DNA from: a virus
Taxonomy: Duplodnaviria; Caudoviricetes
Direction: 5' to 3' (one strand)
Length of the DNA stretch: 63,266 bases
IMG/VR virus record: IMGVR_UViG_3300045970_000244
Location: 1-63,266 of that record
Positions 1-63,266 of this stretch are shown piece after piece; within the stretch, counting starts at the first letter, position 1, and the number at the start of each line of letters is the position of its first letter. The notes below the pieces were generated by a model. The model did no database searches. It was not told the DNA's origin and worked only from the letters and a program-made list of their open reading frames with translations. The translations under genes and the position numbers were made by a program.

Positions 1-127
1 TAGATGTAGTTTGTCGCGCTTGTCGGATACGTCGCCTTAATGACTAGCCCATATGTGACACCAGAAGTGATTGTGACATTGGCGAAGTTAAAGTAAATCC
101 ACTGCCCACCACTTGTTGAGCCACCGG
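1..127. repeat. Terminal direct repeat copy 1 (assembly circularisation overlap)
   Basis: Bases 1-127 (tagatgtagt...gagccaccgg) are identical to 63140-63266 and fall inside an open reading frame. Confidence 0.95.
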
Positions 128-7742: not shown

Positions 7743-8458
7743 TAGCCTTTCAGTGCCTCCAGCTTGGTTTTCAGCTCGTCAATATCGGTCTTCAGCGTCG
7801 TGTACTGAGAAAAAGAGTTCAGCTTCATCGGGCCGAAGATCGTGTTCGTTGTGTCCTTGCTCAGAGTATCACTCAACGTACTCAGTTTGTCAGTGATTTG
7901 AACCAGAAGGGCAAGGACTTCGTCGCCGCCGACCTTGGCGAACTTGAATTTTCCGGGCTTCTTTACGGTAATCTCTGCCGCCCCGTTGTGAAGCACCATG
8001 TCGGCCGCAGCGCCGCTCAGAGGTGCGGCCTTTGCGTACAATCCCGGGATGAACACGGCGTCGCTCAGATCATGCCTGCGCGGGTCCGCCGGGTCGACCA
8101 TTCCGCCCGTCTGTGCCCAAGTGTCCAAGCTGCGTTCCGAGAACACCGCCAGCCCCGTGTCCCCTACGGCGATAGGGAGCTTCACCCAATAGTCAGCACC
8201 GCGCGGGTGAACCACCGGCACGTCCTGAATCACTGGCAGGGGCTTGAGCGAGCCGTCTTTGTACTTGCGCTGGAGCAAAGGTTGGATGTCGCACATGGCG
8301 TTGCCCTTGAGCGCGACGATCTTCGCGGGCATGGCCGTGTGGACGTCGTAGAGCATGGAGTCGATTGCGTCGCGCATCACAACGTCGAGGGGAAGGGTTT
8401 CGTTCGCGGTGTCGTCTGTGTTGGGGTCGAACGGGTCGTCGTAAATTGTCTCGCTCAC
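7742..8458 (-). CDS. Baseplate central spike (Gp138/gpV-like)
   Basis: HTAMPAKIV...DVPVVHPRG...PIAVGDTGL.VFSERSLD.W...RRHDLSDAVFIPG. Confidence 0.9.
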   Translation of the reverse strand: MSETIYDDPFDPNTDDTANETLPLDVVMRDAIDSMLYDVHTAMPAKIVALKGNAMCDIQPLLQRKYKDGSLKPLPVIQDVPVVHPRGADYWVKLPIAVGDTGLAVFSERSLDTWAQTGGMVDPADPRRHDLSDAVFIPGLYAKAAPLSGAAADMVLHNGAAEITVKKPGKFKFAKVGGDEVLALLVQITDKLSTLSDTLSKDTTNTIFGPMKLNSFSQYTTLKTDIDELKTKLEALKG

Positions 8459-9321
8459 GCGACGCCCTCCCGCGACCCTGCGATTTGCGTGTTCTGCTGC
8501 GGGTACGCTTGGGTCGGGCTGATTCTGACGGCTTCGGCGGTGACGCTCCAGTCTTGAGCGTGTGTATCACCCTTGAAGGTGGCGCGCTTGATCTTGAAGT
8601 GCCCGTTGATGTTTTCGCTGACGAGTTTCACGGCACAGTCAGGCATGAGCTTCGGGTTCAAGAGCGACCGGAACTCAATCCCACTTTCTTTTTGCGACGG
8701 GATTCCAAGCAGGCCGGTGTCTTTGGTGAGTAGGACGGCCTCTTCGCCCAAGTGCGCCTTGAGAGGGATGATCTGCAAGTACCCGTTTTGGACGTTCCAG
8801 CCGAGAGGTTGGCGCTTCATGATGGCGTCCATGATGGACTTCACCGTTCCCGAAAACGCAACACCCGAGTTGTAGGTCATGTTTTCAATGCCCATCACGG
8901 TGCCAATCGGAACGCCCAGAGCGCCTGCGAGGTCTTTGATGATCTCCATGTATGATGTGCCGGCCGGGTAAGACTTGTCGAAGTGCGCGTTGGTCAGCTT
9001 GCGCTCGGCATCGCCGCACTCGAACGTGGTGATGATGTCCGGGCCCTTGCGCTGAGAGAGCGTTCGGTTGACGTCGCCGTAGTAGAGGATTTCGAGCATA
9101 CCCTCGTACCCGGCTTCCAGTTTCACGGTCAAACCCTTGCGCTGAAAGTCCGCGCGCGTCTGTGGGTTCAGGTTATAGATGTCGATTTTGGCTTTGTTTG
9201 AAGACGAGGCCGAACTTTTATCTAAGTCGAACGTGGTTCTCAGGCTGGTGAAGCGTTTTCCTTCTTCGCCCTGATAACCTACAGTGACGGCCCAAGTGCG
9301 TTGAAAAAATGAGTCACTCAT
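8455..9321 (-). CDS. Baseplate hub protein
   Basis: N.AKIDIYNLN, LEAGY, TGLLGIP, SLLNPKL, G.FKI...F.GDTH..DW motifs; synteny. Confidence 0.85.
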   Translation of the reverse strand: MSDSFFQRTWAVTVGYQGEEGKRFTSLRTTFDLDKSSASSSNKAKIDIYNLNPQTRADFQRKGLTVKLEAGYEGMLEILYYGDVNRTLSQRKGPDIITTFECGDAERKLTNAHFDKSYPAGTSYMEIIKDLAGALGVPIGTVMGIENMTYNSGVAFSGTVKSIMDAIMKRQPLGWNVQNGYLQIIPLKAHLGEEAVLLTKDTGLLGIPSQKESGIEFRSLLNPKLMPDCAVKLVSENINGHFKIKRATFKGDTHAQDWSVTAEAVRISPTQAYPQQNTQIAGSREGVA

Positions 9322-18788: not shown

Positions 18789-21155
18789 CTAGGCAGGGTT
18801 TTGCCCATCACGAAGCCCAAACCCGCCCACACTGAACGCCTGATACTCGCCTTCGAGCACCTTTTGCCACTCTTTTGCGTCCTTGATTTTGATGCCCAGC
18901 ACCCACGATCCCTTCTTGATCTTCTGCGGCCCGTACTGCCCGCCTTCAAGCTCCATGTCGACCGGGGCGATGTAACTCTCAACAGGTTCGGCTTGTATCG
19001 CCCGCCCGTGCCCAGAGCCCACAACCCGCGATTTCTGCAAATATATGTGCGCTGCGCTCTCAATATCATCGGCAGACATCCAATCTTCTTGAGAGTCGAC
19101 CTCGTCGGGAGCGAGCACCACACCGTAGACGACTTGCTTGTGCTTGTCGGCCTTGATGATAGGGACCTGTCTCAAGTCTTTGGAATCTGCCTTCTTTACC
19201 GGCTTTGACCAGTGCGAAATATTGTACCGAAACCCACTGGAGGTCTTTCCCCCACTTATTCCTGCTTCACGCATGAGGGATTCGTGAACGTGCTTGGCTT
19301 GTGCGCTTGGGAGCCCAGAGGAAACACGCTTTGCCCCTTGCGCTGCCGCTGCCGAATACAACGAGCGGTACATCTCTTTACCGAGCCCTTTACCCTGAAA
19401 CTCATCCTCTAGATCCGTTTCCCCTATGTGGAGGGTGTCTCCGAGGACGATCCCATTCCCGATTCCAACCGTCTTCCCTTCTGAATCCTTTATTTTAACG
19501 CGAACCGCCGGGCTGTCGCGTTCGTCTTCCGAGAGGTCGAGCCCCAAATCTTTCCCGGTCAGATGCTCAACTTGCATTGTGGTTTTGGTTGCGTTGTCTT
19601 CAGTGTCCGTGGTCTCGCGCTCCCACTTGTCCCACGCCGCCTTGTGTTCGTCCTTGGCCTTCTGAAACTCGCGCCCGGTCTTCTCTTCGTGGGCCTGAGC
19701 CTCTTGATGAATCTCATGAACCCGCTGGTCGGTGGGGTTCTTGTCGGCCTCTTCTCGCGCGTTGCGTTCGGCGGTCTGAGCCTTGTGCCATTCGCGACGT
19801 GTTTCCTTCATTTTCTTTTGCGCTGAATCAACGACTTTCATGTGCGGGCTGAGCTCTCCCTTGCCCTTGCTCTCTCCACCGCCAGACCCGAATCGCCCTT
19901 TCTCGTCGCGCGACACCTTGCTCTCGTCCCAATCGCCGGCCTTGCTCACTGCCATGCCTGCGCTGCGGGAGTAAGGCTTGTCGCCTTCGAGCTTTGTTTG
20001 GTGATAGCGCACCTTCTGCTCAAGGGTCTGTCGGGCCTTCATCGCGGCCTTCATGTTGTTGTGGGCCTGCTCATCTTTCGGGTTCTTCTCGTAGGATTCG
20101 CGAGCCTTCTTCTCTTCTGAGTGGGCGTCCTTCAGGCTTGCTTGGGCCGTCATCAGGTGGTCGGCATGTGCCTCGCGTGGGGTCGAGTAGTGCTTGCCGC
20201 CAGATTCACCACCGCCAGAGCCAAAGCGTCCGCGCTCGTCGCGGGGATGTTTTGATTCTTCAAAGGATTCCTCTTTGCTCACGGCGTCGGTCCAGTACTC
20301 GCCCAGAGTTTCAAACGCGAGCTGCGCGTCTTCGGACAGCGGCTCCTTCTCGCTCACGCGCTCGAATATCTGCCGGTACACGAGCTTGGCGCCCTTGGCG
20401 ACTTGGCCCTCGTTGGTTTCGAACCACGTCATGACGAGTTCCTTGGGGTACTCGGTCAGTTCTTCCGGGCCCTCGTAAAGCATCTCGCCGCCGTCTTTGA
20501 GAACCCGGGCGATCTCTCCCAGAATCTCCTTCGGCTGAACGTTCTCCATGTCATGCAGGGCGTTGACTACGCGCACACCCTTGGCCACCCTCTCGGGGAA
20601 CGGGAGGCCCAAGCCGAGGTCATGGATCAGTGTCCCATGATCATACGGATAGATGTCGATGCCGATGTGTCCGGGCTCTCGGCAGGAGGAGCATCCGAGG
20701 TCAAGCATGAGCGATGGTTCGCTCTGCGCTTGCCGGACTTGGTCTTGCTCACCGCTGAAAGCCGCGTCCCCGCGCAAAATCTTGCCGTAGTGGTCGGCGT
20801 CGACGTCAAGGCGGGCCTTGGCCGTGATGCTGGCAACCATCGGGTCAATATTTCCGTTGGCGAACTCGTAATCGGTTCCTTCGATTCTCTGCTGCAAAGC
20901 GAGAACGTCAGCAAAAGCGTCGTCATCAACAATGCGGTCAGCCTTAGTAGCCTTGACAATCTTGTTCCTCTTCTTTCCGAGCGGTTGGTTTACGTGAACG
21001 TCAGAGCCGGCGGGCTGGGCCTTCTTGCACTTGGCGGCCTTTGCTTTGCCTCCAGCCGACGCGCGTGAAGCGCGAAAGAGCTGCGACATCATCCAGTCTG
21101 GTAGGTACGCTTTCGATTTCTTGTGCAGGGCCTCAAGGTATCCGGGTGTCGCCAT
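18789..21155 (-). CDS. Polyprotein: capsid-mimic peptide, SAM methyltransferase, two HPRDxxGRF-type modules, GNAT, C-terminal XkdF-type prohead protease
   Basis: LDLGC...LPFP...EIARVLKDGG (class I MTase); EFQGKGLGKEMY (acetyl-CoA motif A); VYGVVLAPDEVDSQED...IESAAH...ESYIAP...KKGSW...AFSVGG (XkdF). Confidence 0.85.
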   Translation of the reverse strand: MATPGYLEALHKKSKAYLPDWMMSQLFRASRASAGGKAKAAKCKKAQPAGSDVHVNQPLGKKRNKIVKATKADRIVDDDAFADVLALQQRIEGTDYEFANGNIDPMVASITAKARLDVDADHYGKILRGDAAFSGEQDQVRQAQSEPSLMLDLGCSSCREPGHIGIDIYPYDHGTLIHDLGLGLPFPERVAKGVRVVNALHDMENVQPKEILGEIARVLKDGGEMLYEGPEELTEYPKELVMTWFETNEGQVAKGAKLVYRQIFERVSEKEPLSEDAQLAFETLGEYWTDAVSKEESFEESKHPRDERGRFGSGGGESGGKHYSTPREAHADHLMTAQASLKDAHSEEKKARESYEKNPKDEQAHNNMKAAMKARQTLEQKVRYHQTKLEGDKPYSRSAGMAVSKAGDWDESKVSRDEKGRFGSGGGESKGKGELSPHMKVVDSAQKKMKETRREWHKAQTAERNAREEADKNPTDQRVHEIHQEAQAHEEKTGREFQKAKDEHKAAWDKWERETTDTEDNATKTTMQVEHLTGKDLGLDLSEDERDSPAVRVKIKDSEGKTVGIGNGIVLGDTLHIGETDLEDEFQGKGLGKEMYRSLYSAAAAQGAKRVSSGLPSAQAKHVHESLMREAGISGGKTSSGFRYNISHWSKPVKKADSKDLRQVPIIKADKHKQVVYGVVLAPDEVDSQEDWMSADDIESAAHIYLQKSRVVGSGHGRAIQAEPVESYIAPVDMELEGGQYGPQKIKKGSWVLGIKIKDAKEWQKVLEGEYQAFSVGGFGLRDGQNPA

Positions 21156-38950: not shown

Positions 38951-38980
38951 TTGCACTCCGATGGCTTACGGACGTAAGTT
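38951..38980 (+). promoter_or_regulatory. Sigma70-like promoter of parB1-radical SAM operon with palindromic operator
   Basis: TTGCAC-18-TAAGTT, ATG 7 nt later without SD (leaderless); CTTACG-GA-CGTAAG overlaps -10. Confidence 0.5.
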
Positions 38981-38987
38981 TTTTTGC

Positions 38988-39602
38988 ATGGAAGCCATAA
39001 AAGCAGAGAAAATCAAAATCGTGCCCCTGAAAGACCTCAAACCCAACCCGTTGAACCGCAACAAGCACCCGCCCGAGCAAATCGTCAGACTTATAGAGAT
39101 AATTCGCTACCAAGGGTTCCGCAACCCCATCGTCGTGAGCAACCGTTCCGGCTTGGTCGTGACTGGCCACGGTCGTCTGGAAGCCGCTAGGGCCATGGGT
39201 CTTGAGCGAGTGCCGGTGATTTTTCAGGACTACGAGGACGAGGATCAGGAGTACGCCCACGCCATCAGCGACAACGCCATCAGCATGTGGGCCGAGCTGG
39301 ACACAGCCGGAATCAACGAAGACCTCGCGCGCATGGGCCGCGAGTTCAGCCTTGAGCAGCTTGGTATGCGCAGTTTTACACAGGAGATCCCCGGGATGCC
39401 CGGCGGCGGCCACTCAGAGCTCCGCGACGACCTTCCGAATGTTGACATCCAAGGGTCCGTGAACAACCGCACTGAAATTTTGGTCATCACGTTTGCCGAC
39501 CCCGAAAAATACGCTGAGGTGCAACGCCAGTTGGGGCTCCGGCCCACACAACGCACCATCACCTATACCGAAATCGTCGACAAGTGGGAGCTGCCGACAT
39601 GA
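38988..39602 (+). CDS. ParB/Srx N-terminal domain protein (modification island)
   Basis: LKPNPLN.NKH..EQI..L...I...GF.NPIVV...VVTGHGRLEAA..MG...VPV...DN. Confidence 0.9.
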   Translation: MEAIKAEKIKIVPLKDLKPNPLNRNKHPPEQIVRLIEIIRYQGFRNPIVVSNRSGLVVTGHGRLEAARAMGLERVPVIFQDYEDEDQEYAHAISDNAISMWAELDTAGINEDLARMGREFSLEQLGMRSFTQEIPGMPGGGHSELRDDLPNVDIQGSVNNRTEILVITFADPEKYAEVQRQLGLRPTQRTITYTEIVDKWELPT

Positions 39603-40864
39603 GCGAGTACATGAGCCCGCGTTGGAGCGGTGAGGTAAGCGATTGCTCCATGCCTATGACTTTCGATACTTACGACCGCTGCACCTACGGGTGCCTGTAC
39701 TGCTTTGCGGTTTACCAGAAAATCAACAGCAAGGGCCCGAACTACTGGCTTGAGCAGCCTGACTTCGTGAACCCCGAACGCATCAAGGCGATGTTCCGGC
39801 TTGAAAAACCCACACAGTTCGAGAAGTACATCCGCGACCGGATGACCATGCAGTGGGGCGGCATGGCTGACCAGTTCGACGAGAACGAGCGCGAGCACGG
39901 CGTCACGCTGGAGCTCCTGAAGTTCTTCCGGGAGATCAAGTACCCGATCTGTTTTTCGACCAAGGCGACGTGGTTCACCAAGGACGACCGCTACATGTCG
40001 CTCATCAAGGACGCCGACCACTTCAACTTCAAGTTCAGTATTATCAACCTCGACCCGGTGCGGGCCGCCGTCATGGAGGAGCGCGTGGATTCCCCACAGG
40101 AACGCCTCGCGGCCATGAAGCGCCTGAACGACATCAACCCCAAGGGAGGCGTCACCCTCAGACTGCGGCCGTTCATCATCGGCCACACTGACCGGCGCGA
40201 CGAGTACCTTGACCTGATCCGTGCGGCGCACGCCTCTGGCGCGTCGGCCGTGACTACGGAGTTCTACTGTGTTGAGGCCCGACTGAAACCCTCTGAGCGG
40301 TGGCGCTACAACCGTGTGTCCGAGCTCTGCGGGTTCGACGTGTTCGAGTTCTACCAGAAGCACAGCACCGGCTCCGGCTACATGAGGCTCAATTATGAAG
40401 TCAAGAGGCCTTACGTCGACAAGATGAAGGCCCTCTGCGACCAACTCGGGATGCGCTTTTACGTCAGCGATGCCCACCACAAAGAGAAGTGCTCGAACGG
40501 CTCCTGCTGTGGCCTTCCTCCGTCATGGAATTACTCACGAGGCCAGTTCACCGAGGCCCTGCTGATCGCCAAAGAGAAGGGAACCGTGCGCTGGTCTGAC
40601 ATCAGCGGCAAGATGGACCACCTCAAGCAGATCAATTACGCCCGGGCCGAGGGCTTCAATACGGCGAACGTCATGAACCGAGCCACGCGCGGCCGGCAAA
40701 CCCTGTACGATTATTTGCAAGAAATCTGGAACACGCCGAACAACCTGAAGTCACCGTACAAGTACTTCGGCGGAATCATGAACCCAACGGGCACGGACGA
40801 AAATGGCGACGTGATTTACGAGTACCGGCCTAAGCCCTGTCCTTCATCAACTCAGCCAGAATAA
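39599..40864 (+). CDS. Radical SAM enzyme (thymidine-hypermodification isomerase-like)
   Basis: CTYGCLYC (CxxxCxxC); extra CSNGSCCG cluster; ATGA-coupled to ParB gene. Confidence 0.85.
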   Translation: MSEYMSPRWSGEVSDCSMPMTFDTYDRCTYGCLYCFAVYQKINSKGPNYWLEQPDFVNPERIKAMFRLEKPTQFEKYIRDRMTMQWGGMADQFDENEREHGVTLELLKFFREIKYPICFSTKATWFTKDDRYMSLIKDADHFNFKFSIINLDPVRAAVMEERVDSPQERLAAMKRLNDINPKGGVTLRLRPFIIGHTDRRDEYLDLIRAAHASGASAVTTEFYCVEARLKPSERWRYNRVSELCGFDVFEFYQKHSTGSGYMRLNYEVKRPYVDKMKALCDQLGMRFYVSDAHHKEKCSNGSCCGLPPSWNYSRGQFTEALLIAKEKGTVRWSDISGKMDHLKQINYARAEGFNTANVMNRATRGRQTLYDYLQEIWNTPNNLKSPYKYFGGIMNPTGTDENGDVIYEYRPKPCPSSTQPE

Positions 40865-41384
40865 ACCCCGCCGCGTTACTGATGTCCGCCTGACACTCGT
40901 TGGTGAGCTGGTGGACGTCTTCAGGGTTCAAGTTTTTCTTGATGTTGGAGATCTTCGTTTTGCGCCCCTTGAGAAAGGTTTCGGTCTGGGTATCGTTCCG
41001 GGCTTTGTGGCGCGCGGCTTTGGTTTCTTCCGTGCACTCCAACACGAACACCTTGATATCCAGTCTTTCGGCACACCAGCTTAGAAAGCTCAGATTGCCG
41101 AGCCGGTCTCCTTCAAAGAAGATGTTCCACTCGCGCGAATTGAATATGAGCTGGTCGATGTAGAGCTGCACCTGCGGCTGGGCCGCCATGCTGAACTTGT
41201 CCGTGCCGCAAAACGTGTCGCCGTCGTTGTAGAACCCGAGAACGATGATCTTCTCGTCCATGTGTTTCGTTCCGTGAACCAAGCCGCTCTTGAAGGGCAT
41301 CCCGGGCGATAACCGGCGCATCATCTCGCGTACGATGGTTGTTTTACCGGAGGCGGGCTCACCAATCATAGCAACAATTTTCAT
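40830..41384 (-). CDS. P-loop kinase, putative 5-hydroxymethyluracil-DNA kinase
   Basis: GEPASGKTT Walker A; LG.Y....F.GTD..SM..QP, FEGDRL, R...R.D.Q...FL.GR.TK motifs; adjacent to transferase. Confidence 0.75.
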   Translation of the reverse strand: MKIVAMIGEPASGKTTIVREMMRRLSPGMPFKSGLVHGTKHMDEKIIVLGFYNDGDTFCGTDKFSMAAQPQVQLYIDQLIFNSREWNIFFEGDRLGNLSFLSWCAERLDIKVFVLECTEETKAARHKARNDTQTETFLKGRKTKISNIKKNLNPEDVHQLTNECQADISNAAGFILAELMKDRA

Positions 41385-42520
41385 GTGTCAATCTCCTTGT
41401 TGAAGTCGTTTTCAAAACAGGGCCAGTCCCGGTGCATCATGATGACTTGCCCGGTCAGGCGATAGTGGTTCTGTTTGCGTGGGACCAAACCCGGGTCGCG
41501 CGGGTTGTCCTCAATCCGAAGGTGCGGCGGTAAGTACCAGCGGCGCGCGTCCCAGAACAGGCTGAAGTCCTCAGCGCCGGCCCAAGCCTCCTCGGCGGTC
41601 TTTATCCGGTTGTAAAACATGTCCATGTAGACGTTCGGGTACCGGCGGTTTTCGCGGTGCCAGCTCTTGTAACAGCACAGGGTTGATTCCAGCGTGAAGT
41701 ACCCGACGTCGCGCTCATCGATGTCCGGGTTGCCGGTCAGGCGCATTCGCGCGGCGTTCAGGAGCAGGTGCCCCTCGGCCTTGAGCCAGTCGATGATCTC
41801 TTTGTTGTAACCACGGAAGGCCGGATTCAGCGTGTCGTGCCAGTCGAGGTCGTCGCGGCCGTTGACCTTACACAGCCCGTTACGGTGAGACTTTGAGCCG
41901 TCGATGTCGTCCAGAAAGAGTTGGTCGCAGTCGATGTTCAGGCCCATGATGCGCAAGTACTCAAGATAGGAAAACGTCGAGAGCCGGCCGAACAACTCGA
42001 ACCCCATGACGTGCCGCCACACACGGCGGAAGTTCTCGTCCTCGTCGGCGGTGTTTGCGAGCTCGCCCTCGAATAATTCTGTTTGACTTTTGCCGCGCAA
42101 GTTCAGCTTGTAGCTCATCACACACTTCTCAAATTGGTTCTTGACATAGCGGCGGTCAGTGTCCCACCCGAGCTTTGGGTAATTCTCACGGAACCAGCGC
42201 GAGAGCTTGTCGATGTTCAGCACCTTGAAGTCAGGGAACCGCTTGAAGATCGTCCAAGTGGTGACGGCGTGCTGGCACAGCCCGTTGATGTACGCGAACC
42301 AGTACCGCTGCTCCTTGTCGAGTTTCTGCGTCTCCACGATGTACGGCATCATCTGGTACACGGCGCCCGGGTGAGATCGGTACTTCAGGTGGAACTCGTA
42401 AAAACGTAAGAACGTCTCTCTTCGGTACTCTGGGAGGCGAAAGTCCATCCCCTTCTCAAGTTCCGTGACCTCGTGCGGGGCGCCACGTCCGGCGCTGTGA
42501 GGGCTACTTTGGTTGAACAT
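41381..42520 (-). CDS. Amino acid:DNA transferase (aG/PT-pyrophosphorylase clade 2 family)
   Basis: DFRLPEYRRE.F..FY.FHLKY.SHPG.VY, WDTDRRY, FGRLSTFSYLEYL, GSKSHRNGL, FTLESTLC.YKSWHR..RRYPNVY. Confidence 0.85.
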   Translation of the reverse strand: MFNQSSPHSAGRGAPHEVTELEKGMDFRLPEYRRETFLRFYEFHLKYRSHPGAVYQMMPYIVETQKLDKEQRYWFAYINGLCQHAVTTWTIFKRFPDFKVLNIDKLSRWFRENYPKLGWDTDRRYVKNQFEKCVMSYKLNLRGKSQTELFEGELANTADEDENFRRVWRHVMGFELFGRLSTFSYLEYLRIMGLNIDCDQLFLDDIDGSKSHRNGLCKVNGRDDLDWHDTLNPAFRGYNKEIIDWLKAEGHLLLNAARMRLTGNPDIDERDVGYFTLESTLCCYKSWHRENRRYPNVYMDMFYNRIKTAEEAWAGAEDFSLFWDARRWYLPPHLRIEDNPRDPGLVPRKQNHYRLTGQVIMMHRDWPCFENDFNKEIDT

Positions 42521-43601
42521 ATTCGTTGATCCTCGTAGGGAAGGCACCAAGCCTCGGAGCAAGCAGGGCACGCATGTTCTCGGCGCGGGGTTTGGACCCG
42601 ACGATCCAGAACACGCTTTTGTGGTTGAGGAGGGCCGGAAGTTTTTCGCAGACGTAGGTCATCATTTTGCCTTCATACGTCGGGTGAAACTCGATCCCCT
42701 TGTAGGAAAACGGCACCTCGGTCTGGTAGTCGACGTACCCAGTGGTGTGCAGGTCATGGTGGATCAGCTCGTAAAGGGGCTCGTCCACGGTGGCTTCATA
42801 CTCAGATTGCACGTCAGGGTGTGAAATATAGTCGCGCTTGAACAGCCGGGTCGGGAGGCCCGCCACCCGCGAGATGATCTCAAGGCGCTCCTCGATCAAC
42901 TGGAGCTTGGGCGGCCCGATGCCGATCAGGTACACGCGTTTCAGGTTCTTCGGCCGAAAGCGCGCGAGCCCGTAAAGAATGCTCACCGTCGAATTGCATG
43001 AGCCAGACGGGATGACCAGAGTTTCCATGTCGTCAGGCAGGTTACGAACCTGTTCAGAACCAATGAAGTGAAACCGCTCGATCCGCCCGCCCGGGTGGCT
43101 ATGGTGGTCAAGTGTGATGCCGTACTCAAGGTAAAAGTATTGTGAGAGCTCGGGGTCGGTTTCCTTGAGGTCGCGCACCTTCTTTTGCAGAACGGGGTTG
43201 TAGGCGATGTTCGGGTTGATGGCAAACCGGGCTCCGAACCACGTGGCCATGGCGACGTTCTCGTGCCGGATGGCGGCGTCGGTGTTCGTGGCGCCGATGA
43301 CGTGCAAGCTCTTGAGCCCATAGTGTGCCGCGATTGCCGAGCCCATCGGGAGCTGCGGTGACTTCACGGAGGTGCCGGAGATCATTCCCACGGCGCCGGG
43401 CTCCTTCAGGTACTCGGTCACGAGCCAGATACACTGCCGTAACTTGCTGCCGTTGATGCCGCCGTAGCCCAGAGGAGCGAATTTGTCCTCCCGCTTGAAT
43501 CGGAGGTTGCCAACCCCTTCAACCGGAGTGAGGTCGAAAATACGCTCCTCCCAGCGGGATTCTGAGCGATCAAGACTGAGTGTCTGGAAGATTGTTTCCA
43601 C
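42504..43601 (-). CDS. Fold-type II PLP-dependent enzyme (putative DNA amino-acid decarboxylase)
   Basis: TPVE...FKRED.F...GGINGSKLRQ (PLP Lys), PSGSCNS, HPTYEGK, FWIVG; start re-set to GTG 43601. Confidence 0.85.
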   Translation of the reverse strand: METIFQTLSLDRSESRWEERIFDLTPVEGVGNLRFKREDKFAPLGYGGINGSKLRQCIWLVTEYLKEPGAVGMISGTSVKSPQLPMGSAIAAHYGLKSLHVIGATNTDAAIRHENVAMATWFGARFAINPNIAYNPVLQKKVRDLKETDPELSQYFYLEYGITLDHHSHPGGRIERFHFIGSEQVRNLPDDMETLVIPSGSCNSTVSILYGLARFRPKNLKRVYLIGIGPPKLQLIEERLEIISRVAGLPTRLFKRDYISHPDVQSEYEATVDEPLYELIHHDLHTTGYVDYQTEVPFSYKGIEFHPTYEGKMMTYVCEKLPALLNHKSVFWIVGSKPRAENMRALLAPRLGAFPTRINEYVQPK

Positions 43602-44475
43602 ACTTCTCCCAAAGAGGATCGCCGGTTTTGCGGCGCTTGGCTTGCTCAAGCTCCTCTTGCGCAGATTTGCAGCGAATCATGGCCTCGCGATAGTAGTAAA
43701 CGATAGTACAGCGTTGGGCGTCGGGCGTGAGCGGTACGATCTGCGTGTTGCCGTGCCACTCGTGAGGGTCGAACAACAGGAGGTCATAAGTGTCGAGCTT
43801 GACGGCAATTCGCCAGTTGGGCAGCACGAGGTCACCGCCCTTGTAAGCGCCCTGCCTGATGGCCGAGATGCAACTGAACCCTTGGGCGAGGTCACCGGCG
43901 TCTTTGTGGCAAGCCGTTCTGAAGTTCTTGTTCACCGTCATGGTGGTGAAGGCCGTGTCAGGAATCAAGAAGTCAGGGGCCGTCCGCCGTGCGTAGTCCT
44001 TCTGGTACTCGTACCGGTCGGGAACGTGCTCGGCAAAGAGGCGGTCTACCTGTTTGACCATCGGCATCAGGGCGTTGAACTTCTCCGGGTGCTGAAGGTT
44101 CCAAGCACAGGCCCGGCAGTAAGGCATCCTGACGGTGCGCTCAAAATAACCGATGATTCCAGAGTACACGCCCCAACCCTTCGGCACGCGCTGGGTCTGC
44201 GACCGGGTGCCGTCTTTGCGCATCCGGCCCTCGCTCTCAATGCCGGCGGCCGTGCCACGGTTGTCGGAGTTCTCGTAGTACCCGTGAAGCACAGACCATG
44301 CGTTCTGAACCAGCAGCGGTGAGAGGGCTTGTTTCAGGAGTACGGCCAGAGGCGAACCATCGGGGCGCTCGACGCGCGTGGTTTCAGTGAGCAGGACGTC
44401 GTAGTCCCGCTCGTCCACGAACCTCATTCCCCAATCTTCGCTATTGGGCTTTGACGGTAGCCTTATGAGCTTCAC
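43570..44475 (-). CDS. TET/JBP-family 2-oxoglutarate/Fe(II) dioxygenase
   Basis: FTT.TVNKNFRTACHKDAGD (HxD), DPHEWHGNT (distal His), R.TIV.Y.RE (2OG Arg); SGIIGYFER...PYCR. Confidence 0.9.
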   Translation of the reverse strand: MKLIRLPSKPNSEDWGMRFVDERDYDVLLTETTRVERPDGSPLAVLLKQALSPLLVQNAWSVLHGYYENSDNRGTAAGIESEGRMRKDGTRSQTQRVPKGWGVYSGIIGYFERTVRMPYCRACAWNLQHPEKFNALMPMVKQVDRLFAEHVPDRYEYQKDYARRTAPDFLIPDTAFTTMTVNKNFRTACHKDAGDLAQGFSCISAIRQGAYKGGDLVLPNWRIAVKLDTYDLLLFDPHEWHGNTQIVPLTPDAQRCTIVYYYREAMIRCKSAQEELEQAKRRKTGDPLWEKCGNNLPDTQS

Positions 44476-45190
44476 GCACTATCCCCAACAGAGTGTCCGA
44501 TATATTGTCCGTGCCGCGCACGGTTTGCAACGCTTCGACCATTGAAACGAAGTCCACGTAATCGTCCATCGTGAAAAACAACTGAAGCTGTTTAACCTGC
44601 GTGGAGCCAGAGGCCATAGTTTTTTCTGGCATCATTCCGGTGTTCGGCGAACCGATGTCAGCCGGGGCCGGGATTGATCCGTCTGTCGGCGAAACAAACG
44701 TCGCGGCCAACTGCGAGAAGTCAACCTCCGGGAAGTGAAAGTTGGAAACCATGTCCTCGTAAGGGATGTCGTTCTCGCGCATAAACTGCGCCAACGAATC
44801 CTTGGTCAGTTTGCCGTACTGAGAGGCCGCCGCAAGCACCTTGCGCTTGGCTTCGGCATAGCTTTCGGCTTCGACCACAGCGACCGGGATTTCGGGAATC
44901 GTCCAGCCCTCGATGGCCTTCATCTGGTTCAGGGTGAACACGCGCTGGTGGCCGTCGATGATGAAAAACTTTCCTTTGTCCTTCCAGACGTGGACAACGA
45001 ACGAGAAACCGAAATCGCCGAGCGTCTTACGCAGGGCCTCGTACTCGGTGCGTTCAAGGTGTTTGAGTGAGCCCTGAAACGGCTCTAATTTTTCGAGCGG
45101 GAGGGTCTGGCTGCCCTTCACGGTGATCTCAAGGGTTTTGCCCGCGATTTTACGCCGGGGCGCGCGTTCTTTGGTCGTTTCTGTTGTCAT
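44441..45190 (-). CDS. Second ParB/Srx-like protein (modification island)
   Basis: LEPFQG.LK.L...Y..L..TL...GF...V.VW....IIDGHQR...L; GAGG RBS. Confidence 0.85.
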   Translation of the reverse strand: MTTETTKERAPRRKIAGKTLEITVKGSQTLPLEKLEPFQGSLKHLERTEYEALRKTLGDFGFSFVVHVWKDKGKFFIIDGHQRVFTLNQMKAIEGWTIPEIPVAVVEAESYAEAKRKVLAAASQYGKLTKDSLAQFMRENDIPYEDMVSNFHFPEVDFSQLAATFVSPTDGSIPAPADIGSPNTGMMPEKTMASGSTQVKQLQLFFTMDDYVDFVSMVEALQTVRGTDNISDTLLGIVREAHKATVKAQ

Positions 45191-63139: not shown

Positions 63140-63266
63140 TAGATGTAGTTTGTCGCGCTTGTCGGATACGTCGCCTTAATGACTAGCCCATATGTGACAC
63201 CAGAAGTGATTGTGACATTGGCGAAGTTAAAGTAAATCCACTGCCCACCACTTGTTGAGCCACCGG
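63140..63266. repeat. Terminal direct repeat copy 2 (assembly circularisation overlap)
   Basis: Exact copy of 1-127; unique genome length is 63,139 bp. Confidence 0.95.

What the first reader, a model, noticed from the sequence alone, without database searches (positions are those of the whole stretch)
38988..45190. Post-replicative thymine hypermodification island driven by a TET/JBP dioxygenase
Seen: seven contiguous genes with clear motifs: TET/JBP (HKD...H...R), P-loop kinase, amino acid:DNA transferase (aG/PT-PPlase clade 2), CxxxCxxC radical SAM, fold-II PLP enzyme and two ParB-like proteins. Known: in Pseudomonas phage M6, a 5hmU-DNA kinase, transferase, radical SAM isomerase and PLP decarboxylase convert 5hmU to 5-aminoethyluracil, but the 5hmU comes from a dUMP hydroxymethylase and is incorporated during replication. 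JBP enzymes oxidise T to 5hmU within DNA. Seen: this complete genome has no recognisable thymidylate-synthase-like hydroxymethylase, dCMP deaminase, DNA polymerase or cytosine methyltransferase. Inference: TET/JBP oxidises T in already replicated DNA and feeds the M6-like chain, giving a portable cassette compatible with host polymerase. TET-transferase neighbourhoods have been noted computationally, but I do not know of this full set being characterised.
Basis: partly seen in the sequence, partly recalled or inferred. Interest (0 to 1): 0.9.

Follow-up and report, generated by a model that had tools for sequence, protein, structure and literature searches.

The report
Phage thymine hypermodification island, dual entry
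A complete uncultured phage genome carries an already described kind of gene cluster that oxidises and then decorates thymine in its own DNA, and unusually it holds both the oxygen-dependent oxidase and a radical-SAM enzyme that takes that oxidase's place in phages of anaerobes.

Summary
The seven genes are real and the genome (complete, 127-bp terminal repeat) has no ThyA, ThyX, C5-methyltransferase, dCMP deaminase or family A/B polymerase. The central idea is right but already in print. A TET/JBP enzyme making 5hmU in replicated DNA for a kinase and an amino-acid:DNA transferase was predicted by Lee et al. 2021. ParB-dependent phage thymine dioxygenases were shown by O'Toole et al. 2026.

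The "M6-like" part is not supported. The transferase and PLP enzyme are of the Salmonella phage ViI type (28% and 44% identity; the PLP lysine is conserved). None of the four enzymes resembles M6 gp51-54 by BLASTP.

The minus-strand operon ParB2-TET-PLP-transferase-kinase recurs elsewhere without any radical SAM gene, once in a complete genome.

The plus-strand pair ParB1-radical SAM belongs to a separate, widespread module with a spore-photoproduct-lyase-like fold. That module heads kinase/transferase or TET-associated-glycosyltransferase cassettes, mostly in DNA assigned to anaerobes. I found no TET in any of its 240 sampled loci (overlapping sets) and no such radical SAM in any of 88 TET loci.

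This scan has already proposed, on other DNA, that the radical SAM stands in for TET. This window is the only case I saw with both. The ParB C-terminal domains track their neighbouring enzyme.

The parts
38961..39602 (+). ParB1, a ParB-like protein (213 aa) heading the plus-strand pair. Its C-terminal domain is of the type found in radical-SAM-linked ParBs.
   Evidence: PF02195, E 1.5e-7. phrog_498 at 3e-31 and phrog_620 at 3.5e-26. In the tree of the last 85 residues it groups at SH-aLRT 100 with the ParBs of L005, L006 and L007, and is 42% identical to L007 over 72 columns.
39599..40864 (+). Spore-photoproduct-lyase-like radical SAM enzyme. The ORF is open from GTG 39584. The likely start is ATG 39599, which overlaps the ParB1 stop as ATGA and has GGGAG upstream.
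   Evidence: PF04055, 3.7e-7. NCBIfam PA0069-family rSAM, 4.6e-16, below its cut-off. AlphaFold model with pLDDT 88.5. The six best PDB matches are all spore photoproduct lyase, best 4fhg at E 6.5e-8 with TM 0.48/0.59. C21, C33, C37, C40, C229, C303, C308 and C309 are invariant in 26 of 26 sequences. Start codon read.
40830..41384 (-). P-loop kinase, candidate 5-hydroxymethyluracil DNA kinase. Its 3' end overlaps the 3' end of the convergent radical SAM gene by 35 bp.
   Evidence: phrog_800, 1.4e-13, the same PHROG as M6 gp54 (2e-39) and Zemanar gp4 (4.5e-35). Pfam Ploopntkinase3 at 8.7e-5 is below its cut-off. It is 37-46% identical to the kinases in TET loci and 36-41% identical to those in two radical SAM loci.
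41381..42571 (-). Amino-acid:DNA transferase (AADT, formerly aGPT-Pplase clade 2). A possible later start lies at the ATG of residue 17.
   Evidence: PF18724, 1.1e-23. phrog_3271, 1.1e-80, shared with ViI gp247 and Zemanar gp3. 28% identity to ViI gp247, E 3e-30. 41-42% identity to Coopervirus mycobacteriophages. 51-54% identity to L094, L096, L097 and L105.
42504..43649 (-). Fold-type-II PLP enzyme, candidate decarboxylase of an amino-acid-thymine conjugate.
   Evidence: phrog_3650, 1.4e-110, shared with ViI gp226. 44% identity to ViI gp226 over 379 columns, E 5e-102. The GINGSKLRQ motif is identical, so K69 aligns with gp226 K92. K92 is the lysine named as the likely aldimine site in PMC8989533 section 19.
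43570..44475 (-). TET/JBP-family Fe(II)/2-oxoglutarate dioxygenase (5mYOX), candidate thymine dioxygenase.
   Evidence: PF12851, 9.6e-20. phrog_24024, 5.9e-63. H190, D192, H241 and R255 are invariant in 8 of 8 sequences. 32 residues follow the invariant C269.
44441..45190 (-). ParB2, a ParB-like protein (249 aa), the first gene of the minus-strand operon. Its stop overlaps the TET ORF by 35 nt. It is a chimera in domain kinship.
   Evidence: phrog_498 at 3.5e-11 and phrog_620 at 4.4e-6. The N-terminal part groups at 99 with the ParBs of L005 and L007, with 45% identity. The last 85 residues lie in a 99-supported set of 37 rows: 35 TET-linked ParBs, ParB2 itself and one radical-SAM-linked ParB. 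Gene junction read.

Best explanation
The island is two modules that converge on each other.

Module 1, minus strand, 45190 to 40830 (ParB2, TET/JBP, PLP enzyme, transferase, kinase), is a self-sufficient post-replicative thymine hypermodification pathway of the published ParB-dependent 5mYOX kind. All steps below are inferred from homology and context.
1. With ParB2 as activator, the dioxygenase oxidises thymine in replicated phage DNA to 5-hydroxymethyluracil.
2. The P-loop kinase phosphorylates the hydroxymethyl group.
3. The transferase displaces the phosphate with an amino acid, attached so that its alpha-amino acid end stays free. By analogy with ViI gp247 this is most likely serine through its hydroxyl.
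4. The PLP enzyme removes the carboxylate, giving an aminoalkyl base. The ViI product, 5-(2-aminoethoxy)methyl-dU, is the best guess.

No radical SAM step is needed for this line.

Module 2, plus strand (ParB1, radical SAM), is the conserved core of a different, widespread cassette. My preferred reading of it, an inference and less than even odds, is a second, oxygen-independent way to activate the thymine methyl group. It would feed the same kinase, transferase and PLP enzymes when O2 is absent.

The host polymerase replicates the genome with ordinary dTTP.
For: Architecture:
- The genes are tightly coupled.
- The genome has no ThyA, ThyX, C5-MTase, dCMP deaminase, PolA or PolB.
- The TET catalytic residues are intact.

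Literature:
- ParB-dependent clade C1 5mYOXs make 5hmU on DNA. They are 'consistently linked' with P-loop kinases, AADTs and GATases and lack a neighbouring C5-MT (PMC13229309 sections 5, 6, 13).
- Lee 2021 predicted TET_JBP as the in situ 5hmU source.

Relatives:
- Among 88 TET loci, a ParB profile hits 81, a kinase profile 31, a transferase profile 28 and a PLP profile 4.
- L094 has the same order: ParB, TET, PLP (53% identity), AADT (54%), kinase (38%).
- Mycobacteriophage Zemanar gp1-gp4 are ParB, TET, AADT and kinase.

ViI-type chemistry:
- PLP enzyme 44% identical to gp226, with the lysine aligned.
- AADT 28% identical to gp247, and the two pairs share PHROGs.
- In ViI, O-serinyl-T needs no isomerase before decarboxylation (PMC8989533 section 19).

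No radical SAM requirement:
- 0 of 88 TET loci hold the family.
- The complete 48-kb genome behind L097 has TET, AADT and PLP but no such gene, with a positive control.

Module 2 as a separate unit:
- It lies on the opposite strand.
- ParB1's C-terminal domain groups at 100 with radical-SAM-linked ParBs, and ParB2's with TET-linked ParBs.

Module 2 as an entry enzyme:
- The fold is SPL-like.
- The family sits behind a ParB gene: 69 of 80, 60 of 80 and 66 of 80 loci, and 45 of 45 loci of at least 10 kb.
- It sits beside the same downstream toolkits as TET: kinase 43 of 80 against 31 of 88, AADT 33 of 80 against 28 of 88, and the same GT family 25 of 80 against 32 of 88. The GT hits Pfam 'TET-associated glycosyltransferase' in 3 of 3 proteins tested.
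- TET is absent from 0 of 240 such loci. TET and ThyA are absent from 5 of 5 larger related genomes, 4 of them at least 90% complete.
- SAM synthetase is present in 22 of 80 of these loci against 0 of 88 TET loci.
- 57 of 67 genome-derived loci with at least 40% identity come from Bacteroidales, Clostridia, Victivallales, Selenomonadales, Coriobacteriales, Bifidobacteriales, methanogens or Thermotogota.
- TET relatives in cultured phages infect Microbacterium, Gordonia, Mycobacterium, Arthrobacter, Pelagibacter, Caulobacter, Synechococcus and the like.
Against: - No chemistry has been measured for any gene here.
- Thymine rather than 5mC as the TET substrate rests on context only. Host-installed 5mC cannot be excluded.
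- I could not compare the TET with the assayed 5mYOX sequences, because the supplements are closed.
- 28% identity does not fix the transferase's donor. Relatives of this family use glycine, serine, putrescine or diaminopropane.
- The kinase reaches only sub-threshold Pfam scores.
- If radical SAM and TET were equivalent, holding both needs a special reason (changing oxygen), and the host is unknown.
- Both the window's radical SAM and M6 gp53 are SPL-like and distantly alignable (hhalign probability 61%, E 8e-5). A tailoring role is therefore not excluded.
- Earlier notes of this scan describe cassettes with two ParBs and one radical SAM, so two ParBs need not mean two partners.
- Full-length ParB2 groups with radical-SAM-linked ParBs.
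- The locus sets overlap and each keeps only the best 80 of 207, 292, 92 and 311 matches, so co-occurrence elsewhere is not ruled out.
Confidence: 0.62

Rival explanations
1. TET makes 5hmU and the kinase phosphorylates it. The transferase adds glycine through its amine. The radical SAM enzyme isomerises N-alpha-glycinyl-T to C-alpha-glycinyl-T as M6 gp53 does. The PLP enzyme then decarboxylates it to 5-(2-aminoethyl)uracil.
For: The same four enzyme classes as M6 gp51-54 are present. The radical SAM enzyme and M6 gp53 are both SPL-like (PMC8989533 section 18). They align distantly (hhalign probability 61%, E 8e-5, 173 columns). M6 gp53 also gives a secondary hit to phrog_13321 at 2.6e-14.
Against: BLASTP to M6 gp51, gp52, gp53 and gp54 gives only E 0.007, 0.15, 0.085 and 0.011, and there is no tblastn hit of the radical SAM in 50,697 phage records. 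The transferase and PLP enzyme are in the ViI PHROGs, not the M6 ones. The radical SAM family has no PLP neighbour in 0 of 240 loci. Its closest members (L005, L006, L009; 55-57% identity) sit in ParB-glycosyltransferase-radical SAM cassettes with no transferase to supply a glycinyl substrate. TET-PLP-transferase-kinase sets exist without it. In 3 of 80 loci a second, gp53-like radical SAM stands beside this one.
Confidence: 0.1
2. The radical SAM and ParB1 pair performs a different step that is neither entry nor the M6 isomerisation. It could tailor the final aminoalkyl base further, or make an independent modification of another base. TET alone supplies 5hmU.
For: Both genes are intact and have the genome's own G+C (0.575 against 0.563), so both are kept. 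Radical SAM enzymes catalyse many reactions. Lee 2021 list radical SAM enzymes among combinatorial tailoring genes. Co-occurrence with TET in this genome is easier to explain if the functions differ.
Against: In the family at large, nothing else in the cassettes or in 5 of 5 related genomes could supply the hydroxyl that the linked kinases and glycosyltransferases need. Strict mutual exclusion with TET (0 of 240 and 0 of 88) is the pattern of equivalence, not of a downstream step.
Confidence: 0.2
3. The TET enzyme oxidises 5-methylcytosine installed by a host methyltransferase, as in the phage 5mC dioxygenases of Burke et al. 2021, and the island modifies cytosine.
For: Phage TETs of clades A and B act on 5mC (stated in PMC13229309 section 5). 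The assayed T-dioxygenases also oxidise 5mC in vitro (abstract).
Against: There is no C5-MTase anywhere in the genome. The neighbours are thymine-pathway enzymes (kinase, AADT, ViI-type PLP). The ParB-coupled architecture is the T-dioxygenase subclass.
Confidence: 0.05

Closest known systems
ParB-dependent phage thymine dioxygenase clusters (5mYOX clade C1; O'Toole et al., PNAS 2026, PMC13229309). Also annotated in Coopervirus mycobacteriophages (Zemanar gp1-gp4) and Rhodococcus phage Tonitrus (PMC11955845).
   Same: A ParB-like gene sits directly upstream of a TET/JBP gene. No C5-methyltransferase is present. A P-loop kinase and an amino-acid:DNA transferase are in the same operon. No dUMP hydroxymethylase is present.
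   Different: A ViI-type PLP enzyme is added, which only 4 of 88 related loci have. A second ParB plus an SPL-like radical SAM gene is present, seen in none of the 88. ParB2 has an N-terminal domain akin to radical-SAM-linked ParBs. TET identity to the nearest relatives is only 36-44%.
Salmonella phage ViI 5-NeOmdU pathway (kinases gp67 and gp243, serine:DNA transferase gp247, PLP decarboxylase gp226; Lee et al. 2018 and 2021).
   Same: The transferase (28% identity, E 3e-30) and the PLP enzyme (44%, E 5e-102, lysine aligned) are homologues in the same PHROGs. The pathway logic needs no isomerase.
   Different: ViI gets 5hmdU before replication from a dUMP hydroxymethylase and its own polymerase. 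Here the source is a TET enzyme acting on DNA, and the phage has no polymerase. The kinase is of the M6 gp54 and Zemanar gp4 type, not the gp243 type. The amino-acid donor is unproven.
Pseudomonas phage M6 5-NedU pathway (gp51 glycine transferase, gp52 PLP decarboxylase, gp53 radical SAM isomerase, gp54 kinase).
   Same: The same four enzyme classes are present. The kinase is in the same PHROG as gp54. Both radical SAM enzymes are SPL-like.
   Different: There is no significant pairwise similarity for the transferase, PLP or radical SAM enzymes, and their primary PHROGs differ. M6 has a thymidylate-synthase homologue, a dCMP deaminase and a polymerase. This genome has none.
ParB-headed radical SAM cassettes of uncultured phages. 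They are unpublished as far as my searches show, and were noted repeatedly by this scan on other DNA.
   Same: ParB1 and the radical SAM gene are translationally coupled. The radical SAM enzyme is 52-59% identical to more than 300 environmental homologues. ParB1's C-terminal domain is of their type.
   Different: Those cassettes lack TET (0 of 240 loci) and PLP (0 of 240 loci). This genome has both. Here the pair stands alone on its strand and faces the downstream enzymes.

Membership tests
ParB-dependent 5mYOX thymine dioxygenase cluster (O'Toole 2026) | TET_JBP domain with the HxD...H iron ligands and the 2-oxoglutarate arginine | tested here: met
   PF12851, 9.6e-20. H190, D192, H241 and R255 are invariant in 8 of 8 sequences.
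ParB-dependent 5mYOX thymine dioxygenase cluster (O'Toole 2026) | A ParB-like gene co-located with the dioxygenase | tested here: met
   The ParB2 stop overlaps the TET ORF. A ParB profile hits 81 of 88 related TET loci.
ParB-dependent 5mYOX thymine dioxygenase cluster (O'Toole 2026) | No neighbouring C5-cytosine methyltransferase | tested here: met
   PF00145 has no match in the whole genome at E <= 1.
ParB-dependent 5mYOX thymine dioxygenase cluster (O'Toole 2026) | Extended C-terminus after the last conserved cysteine, and clade C1 placement | tested here: inconclusive
   32 residues follow the invariant C269. The reference 5mYOX sequences are in supplements I could not open, so no placement was made.
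ParB-dependent 5mYOX thymine dioxygenase cluster (O'Toole 2026) | T to 5hmU activity that depends on the cognate ParB | not testable with these tools
   Needs co-expression and nucleoside analysis.
ViI-type 5-NeOmdU pathway | Homologue of the serine:DNA transferase gp247 | tested here: met
   28% identity over 359 columns, E 3e-30. Both are in phrog_3271. Donor specificity was not tested.
ViI-type 5-NeOmdU pathway | Homologue of the PLP decarboxylase gp226 with the aldimine lysine | tested here: met
   44% identity, E 5e-102, and K69 aligns with K92. Both are in phrog_3650.
ViI-type 5-NeOmdU pathway | 5hmdU supplied before replication by a dUMP hydroxymethylase | tested here: not met
   There is no PF00303 or PF02511 match in the genome. 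So it works like the ViI pathway downstream of 5hmU but is not a member of that system.
M6-type 5-NedU pathway | gp51-type glycine transferase and gp52-type PLP decarboxylase | tested here: not met
   BLASTP E 0.007 and 0.15. M6 proteins are in phrog_6364 and phrog_7093, the window's in phrog_3271 and phrog_3650.
M6-type 5-NedU pathway | gp53-type radical SAM glycinyl-thymine isomerase | tested here: inconclusive
   BLASTP matches only the cluster motif (E 0.085). hhalign probability is 61%, E 8e-5. gp53 is in phrog_9252 and the window protein only in phrog_13321. Both have an SPL-like fold.
Spore-photoproduct-lyase-like radical SAM enzymes | CxxxCxxC cluster motif and SPL-like partial TIM barrel | tested here: met
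   C33, C37 and C40 are invariant. PDB ranks 1-6 are all SPL, E 6.5e-8 to 8e-7. The SPL catalytic Cys and Tyr were not examined.
ParB-headed radical SAM cassettes (TET-free) | ParB-like gene upstream of the radical SAM gene | tested here: met
   ATGA overlap. ParB1's C-terminal domain groups at 100 with the ParBs of L005, L006 and L007.
ParB-headed radical SAM cassettes (TET-free) | Absence of TET/JBP from the locus and genome | tested here: not met
   The window has an intact TET 2.7 kb away. 0 of 240 other loci do.

The most novel reading that the evidence does not exclude
The island holds two interchangeable, ParB-coupled starters for thymine hypermodification. One is an O2-dependent TET/JBP dioxygenase with ParB2. 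The other is an O2-independent, spore-photoproduct-lyase-like radical SAM enzyme with ParB1, which abstracts a hydrogen from the thymine methyl group and yields 5hmU or an equivalent electrophile. Both would feed one kinase, transferase and PLP line, so the phage can modify its DNA whether or not oxygen is present. The C-terminal domain of each ParB would decide which enzyme it serves. ParB2 looks like a natural domain swap: an N-terminal domain of the radical-SAM-linked type joined to a C-terminal domain of the TET-linked type.
Probability: 0.3. Interest if true: 0.85.

Novelty: new variant of a known kind. Interest (0 to 1): 0.58.

Why it matters
The TET-driven pathway itself is ordinary by 2026 standards. 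It adds one more example, probably with a ViI-like aminoalkyl product, in a phage that relies on the host polymerase.

The value of this genome lies in the pairing. It is the only one of 329 loci I examined that carries both the oxygen-dependent thymine oxidase and the radical SAM enzyme that otherwise replaces it, each with its own ParB-like partner and with a single shared set of downstream enzymes.

That makes it a compact test bed for two open questions:
- Does this radical SAM family give an oxygen-free route to hydroxymethyl-uracil in DNA? That would be a third way, after thymidylate-synthase homologues and TET/JBP, of preparing a DNA base for decoration.
- How do ParB-like activators recognise their enzyme?

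A portable, polymerase-independent DNA hypermodification cassette that works with and without oxygen would also be useful as a tool.

Tried and rejected
- **DNA search of phage records.** A megablast of the island against 50,697 phage records found nothing.
- **Radical SAM sequence searches.** The radical SAM protein had no tblastn hit in those records at E <= 1e-3. A profile search of PDB sequences gave only chance hits to viral phosphoproteins. Only the fold search was informative.
- **Binding of the radical SAM enzyme and ParB1.** The complex prediction returned 'no answer' (scores 0.00, 0.50, 0.01). I draw nothing from it.
- **Full-length ParB tree.** It put ParB2 with radical-SAM-linked ParBs and left ParB1 on a long unplaced branch. 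I rejected it as a guide to partnership after separate trees of the two domains gave conflicting but well-supported placements. With 95 and 123 columns these trees are thin.
- **Promoter and terminator scan.** The numbers were not above shuffles.
- **Host inference.** The large terminase gave scattered best hits (Bacillus, Proteus, Faecalibacterium, Stenotrophomonas), so the host and its oxygen habit remain unknown.
- **G+C content.** It gave no sign that either module is a recent import.
- **Possible methyltransferase in the 788-aa head protease protein.** Pfam found only the protease and a GNAT domain at E <= 0.01.
- **M6-like assignment.** I considered it and rejected it.
- **Literature.** Searches for a published link between radical SAM enzymes, ParB and phage base oxidation found none. 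These cover only the held open-access library.
  - O'Toole 2026: I read the abstract and sections 5, 6, 11, 12 and 13, and ran a word search.
  - Lee 2021: I read the abstract and sections 16, 18, 19 and 21, plus passages.
  - PMC11955845: passages only.
  - PMC13458397: abstract and outline only.
  - Burke 2021: seen only in a search listing.
  - Iyer et al. 2013: recalled, not seen.
  - Figures and supplements were not visible (Lee 2021 Figure 2, sequences 22-25; O'Toole Dataset S10). They could contain this very contig or another TET plus radical SAM combination.

Full report
**What is there.** The window is a whole virus genome of 63,266 bp. The record carries direct terminal repeats and a CheckV estimate of 100%, and its first and last 127 bases are identical. 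Structural genes (tape measure, baseplate wedge, tail fibres, terminase), a RecT-like annealing protein and a PD-(D/E)XK exonuclease are recognisable.

Between 38961 and 45190 lie seven tightly packed genes in two convergent units.
- Plus strand: ParB1, then a radical SAM gene. The likely ATG of the radical SAM gene at 39599 overlaps the ParB1 stop as ATGA.
- Minus strand: ParB2, TET/JBP, a PLP enzyme, an amino-acid:DNA transferase and a P-loop kinase. Each overlaps its neighbour.
- The two units overlap tail to tail by 35 bp (40830-40864).

Family assignments are significant for six of the seven genes by Pfam or PHROGs. ParB2 is ParB-like by PHROGs and by alignment only. The TET iron ligands and 2-oxoglutarate arginine (H190, D192, H241, R255) and the radical SAM cysteines (C33, C37, C40) are conserved.

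Six-frame searches of the genome found no ThyA-type, ThyX, C5-methyltransferase, dCMP deaminase, family A or family B polymerase domain at E <= 1. Controls rang in reference genomes. Pfam and PHROG scans of 20 further large ORFs showed no hidden hydroxymethylase or methyltransferase. Small ORFs were not all scanned.

**The central idea is already published.** Lee et al. 2021 (PMC8989533, section 21) report metavirome contigs that lack a dUMP hydroxymethylase. These contigs encode a TET_JBP protein beside thymidine hypermodification genes, and the authors infer in situ conversion of thymine to 5hmU.

O'Toole et al. 2026 (PMC13229309) show this by co-expression in E. coli and in vitro.
- Phage 5mYOX enzymes oxidise thymine in DNA after replication.
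- One subclass needs a neighbouring ParB-like activator.
- That subclass is consistently linked with P-loop kinases, AADTs and glutamine amidotransferases and lacks a nearby C5-methyltransferase.

The same four-gene set is annotated in actinophages. Zemanar gp1-gp4 are ParB, TET, AADT and kinase, and Rhodococcus phage Tonitrus has the set too (PMC11955845). The minus-strand operon here meets every architectural criterion I could test. Activity and clade placement remain untested.

**The downstream chemistry looks like ViI, not M6.**
- Pairwise BLASTP against the characterised M6 enzymes gives nothing beyond short motifs: gp51 E 0.007, gp52 0.15, gp53 0.085, gp54 0.011.
- Against ViI, the PLP enzyme is 44% identical to gp226 (E 5e-102). 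The GINGSKLRQ segment is identical, so K69 aligns with the lysine proposed to carry PLP.
- The transferase is 28% identical to the serine:DNA transferase gp247 (E 3e-30).
- PHROG membership agrees. The window's transferase and PLP enzyme share phrog_3271 and phrog_3650 with the ViI proteins, while the M6 proteins fall in 6364 and 7093. Only the kinase shares a PHROG (800) with M6 gp54.

In ViI the amino acid is attached through its side chain. Its alpha-amine is therefore free for PLP chemistry and no isomerase is needed.

**Relatives show that this line runs without a radical SAM enzyme.** Among 88 loci encoding TET relatives (36-44% identity), profiles find:
- ParB in 81, the kinase in 31, the transferase in 28, the PLP enzyme in 4 and the radical SAM family in 0.
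- tblastn gave 74 (ParB1 query), 30, 23, 4 and 0.

L094 repeats the window's order: ParB, TET, PLP (53%), transferase (54%), kinase (38%). The complete 48-kb genome behind L097 has TET, transferase and PLP but no member of the radical SAM family. The same search finds the gene in the window and in L005's record.

**The radical SAM gene belongs to another module.** Its AlphaFold model (pLDDT 88.5) is closest to spore photoproduct lyase, which takes ranks 1-6 (best E 6.5e-8, TM 0.48/0.59). NCBIfam places it near the PA0069 and Rv2578c 'DNA repair photolyase-like' families, below their cut-offs. Eight cysteines are invariant in 26 of 26 sequences, which suggests an auxiliary cluster.

Homologues at 52-59% identity are abundant:
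- 207 viral loci, 92 genome loci and 311 metagenome loci.
- I analysed the best 80 of each, and the three sets partly overlap.

In these loci:
- A ParB profile hits 69, 60 and 66 of 80, and 45 of 45 loci of at least 10 kb.
- The kinase profile hits 43, 39 and 37. The transferase profile hits 33, 26 and 28.
- A glycosyltransferase family hits 25, 16 and 19. SAM synthetase hits 22, 19 and 23.
- PLP hits 0 of 240 and TET 0 of 240.

The glycosyltransferase hits Pfam 'TET-associated glycosyltransferase' above its cut-off in 3 of 3 proteins tested. A profile of it also finds 32 of the 88 TET loci. L007 reads ParB, amidotransferase-like, transferase, GNAT, kinase, radical SAM. Five larger related genomes, four at least 90% complete, have neither TET_JBP nor a ThyA-type domain.

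So two cassette types share the ParB head and the same downstream toolkits. They differ by TET versus radical SAM (plus SAM synthetase), and in my samples the two are mutually exclusive.

The genome-derived loci with at least 40% identity come mostly from taxa I know as anaerobes. These are 57 of 67: Bacteroidales 26, Clostridia 21, Victivallales 3, Selenomonadales 2, Coriobacteriales 1, Bifidobacteriales 1, methanogens 2 and Thermotogota 1. The 36 cultured-phage TET relatives infect hosts I know as aerobes or oxygenic phototrophs. Binning of phage contigs into MAGs is error-prone, so this split is indicative only.

**What this means for the window.** This scan has drawn the inference that the radical SAM enzyme stands in for TET several times on other DNA. 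I reached it on my own loci before reading those notes, but it is the same idea and remains untested at the bench. My literature searches found it nowhere in print.

The window is the exception to the mutual exclusion, because it has both enzymes intact. I see three readings of its radical SAM gene:
- A second, oxygen-independent entry into the same pathway. I prefer this one, at about 0.3.
- A different tailoring or independent modification step, at about 0.2.
- The M6-type isomerase, at about 0.1. This is disfavoured because the family's nearest members sit in cassettes with no transferase and never with a PLP enzyme, and because three loci carry a separate gp53-like radical SAM beside it.

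**The two ParBs.**
- A full-length tree was confusing.
- Split by domain, ParB1's last 85 residues group at SH-aLRT 100 with the ParBs of the three cassettes whose radical SAM enzymes are closest to the window's (L005, L006, L007).
- ParB2's last 85 residues fall in a 99-supported set of 37 rows that holds all 35 TET-linked ParBs, ParB2 itself and one radical-SAM-linked ParB.
- ParB2's N-terminal part groups at 99 with L005 and L007, at 45% identity.
- The partner label needs 3 changes on the C-terminal tree and 7-8 on the N-terminal tree.

I read this as two cognate pairs, ParB2 with TET and ParB1 with the radical SAM enzyme. ParB2 would be a natural chimera, and the C-terminal domain would carry partner specificity. 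The trees rest on few columns and this is inference. The complex prediction gave no answer.

**Verdict.** It is wrong about M6 likeness and about novelty. The island is a new variant because it unites the TET module and the radical SAM module, each with its own ParB. That makes it a good test bed for an unproven oxygen-free route to 5hmU.

Noticed in passing
L005-L084, L174-L253, L254-L333 (radical SAM gene near position 8001-9250 in full-length loci): A widespread family of SPL-like radical SAM genes sits behind a ParB-like gene and next to the terminase genes. Beside it are kinase plus transferase, or TET-associated-type glycosyltransferase, or GNAT only. TET is never present (0 of 240 loci).
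   Followed up: yes
window 44441-45190 and 38961-39602: ParB2 looks chimeric. Its N-terminal part is closest to radical-SAM-linked ParBs (45% identity to L005), and its C-terminal 85 residues are closest to TET-linked ParBs. ParB1 has the radical-SAM-linked C-terminal domain.
   Followed up: yes
L012:7608-9245 (545 aa); also L014 and L005: A GNAT acetyltransferase domain is fused to the N-terminus of the radical SAM enzyme in some loci. In many others a separate 95-155 aa GNAT gene stands directly upstream.
   Followed up: partly
L034:4981-5535, L078:9383-9925, L082:6597-7139: A second, shorter radical SAM gene, 21-24% identical to M6 gp53, lies beside the family radical SAM gene in 3 of 80 viral loci. 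This suggests the two have different roles.
   Followed up: partly
L062:2513-3748 and 21 other viral loci: Phage-encoded S-adenosylmethionine synthetase lies close to the radical SAM cassettes (22 of 80 loci). None is found in the 88 TET loci.
   Followed up: partly
window 18789-21155: The 788-aa protein has an XkdF-type prohead protease domain and a GNAT domain. Pfam found no methyltransferase domain at E <= 0.01, although an earlier first-reader note proposed one.
   Followed up: partly
window 40830-40864: The convergent radical SAM and kinase genes overlap by 35 bp at their 3' ends, with no terminator-like site between them. Transcripts from the two units would therefore be antisense to each other.
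   Followed up: no
L003 (Zemanar gp2, gp4), L004 (M6 gp54), L001 (HTVC112P gp18): Public annotations mislabel these families. The 5hmU DNA kinase appears as 'terminase small subunit' (phrog_800). The TET/JBP enzyme appears as 'queuine tRNA-ribosyltransferase' (phrog_6059) or 'SNF2 DNA repair protein / DnaJ'.
   Followed up: partly
window 1-127 and 63140-63266: An exact 127-bp direct terminal repeat is present, consistent with a complete, circularly assembled genome.
   Followed up: yes
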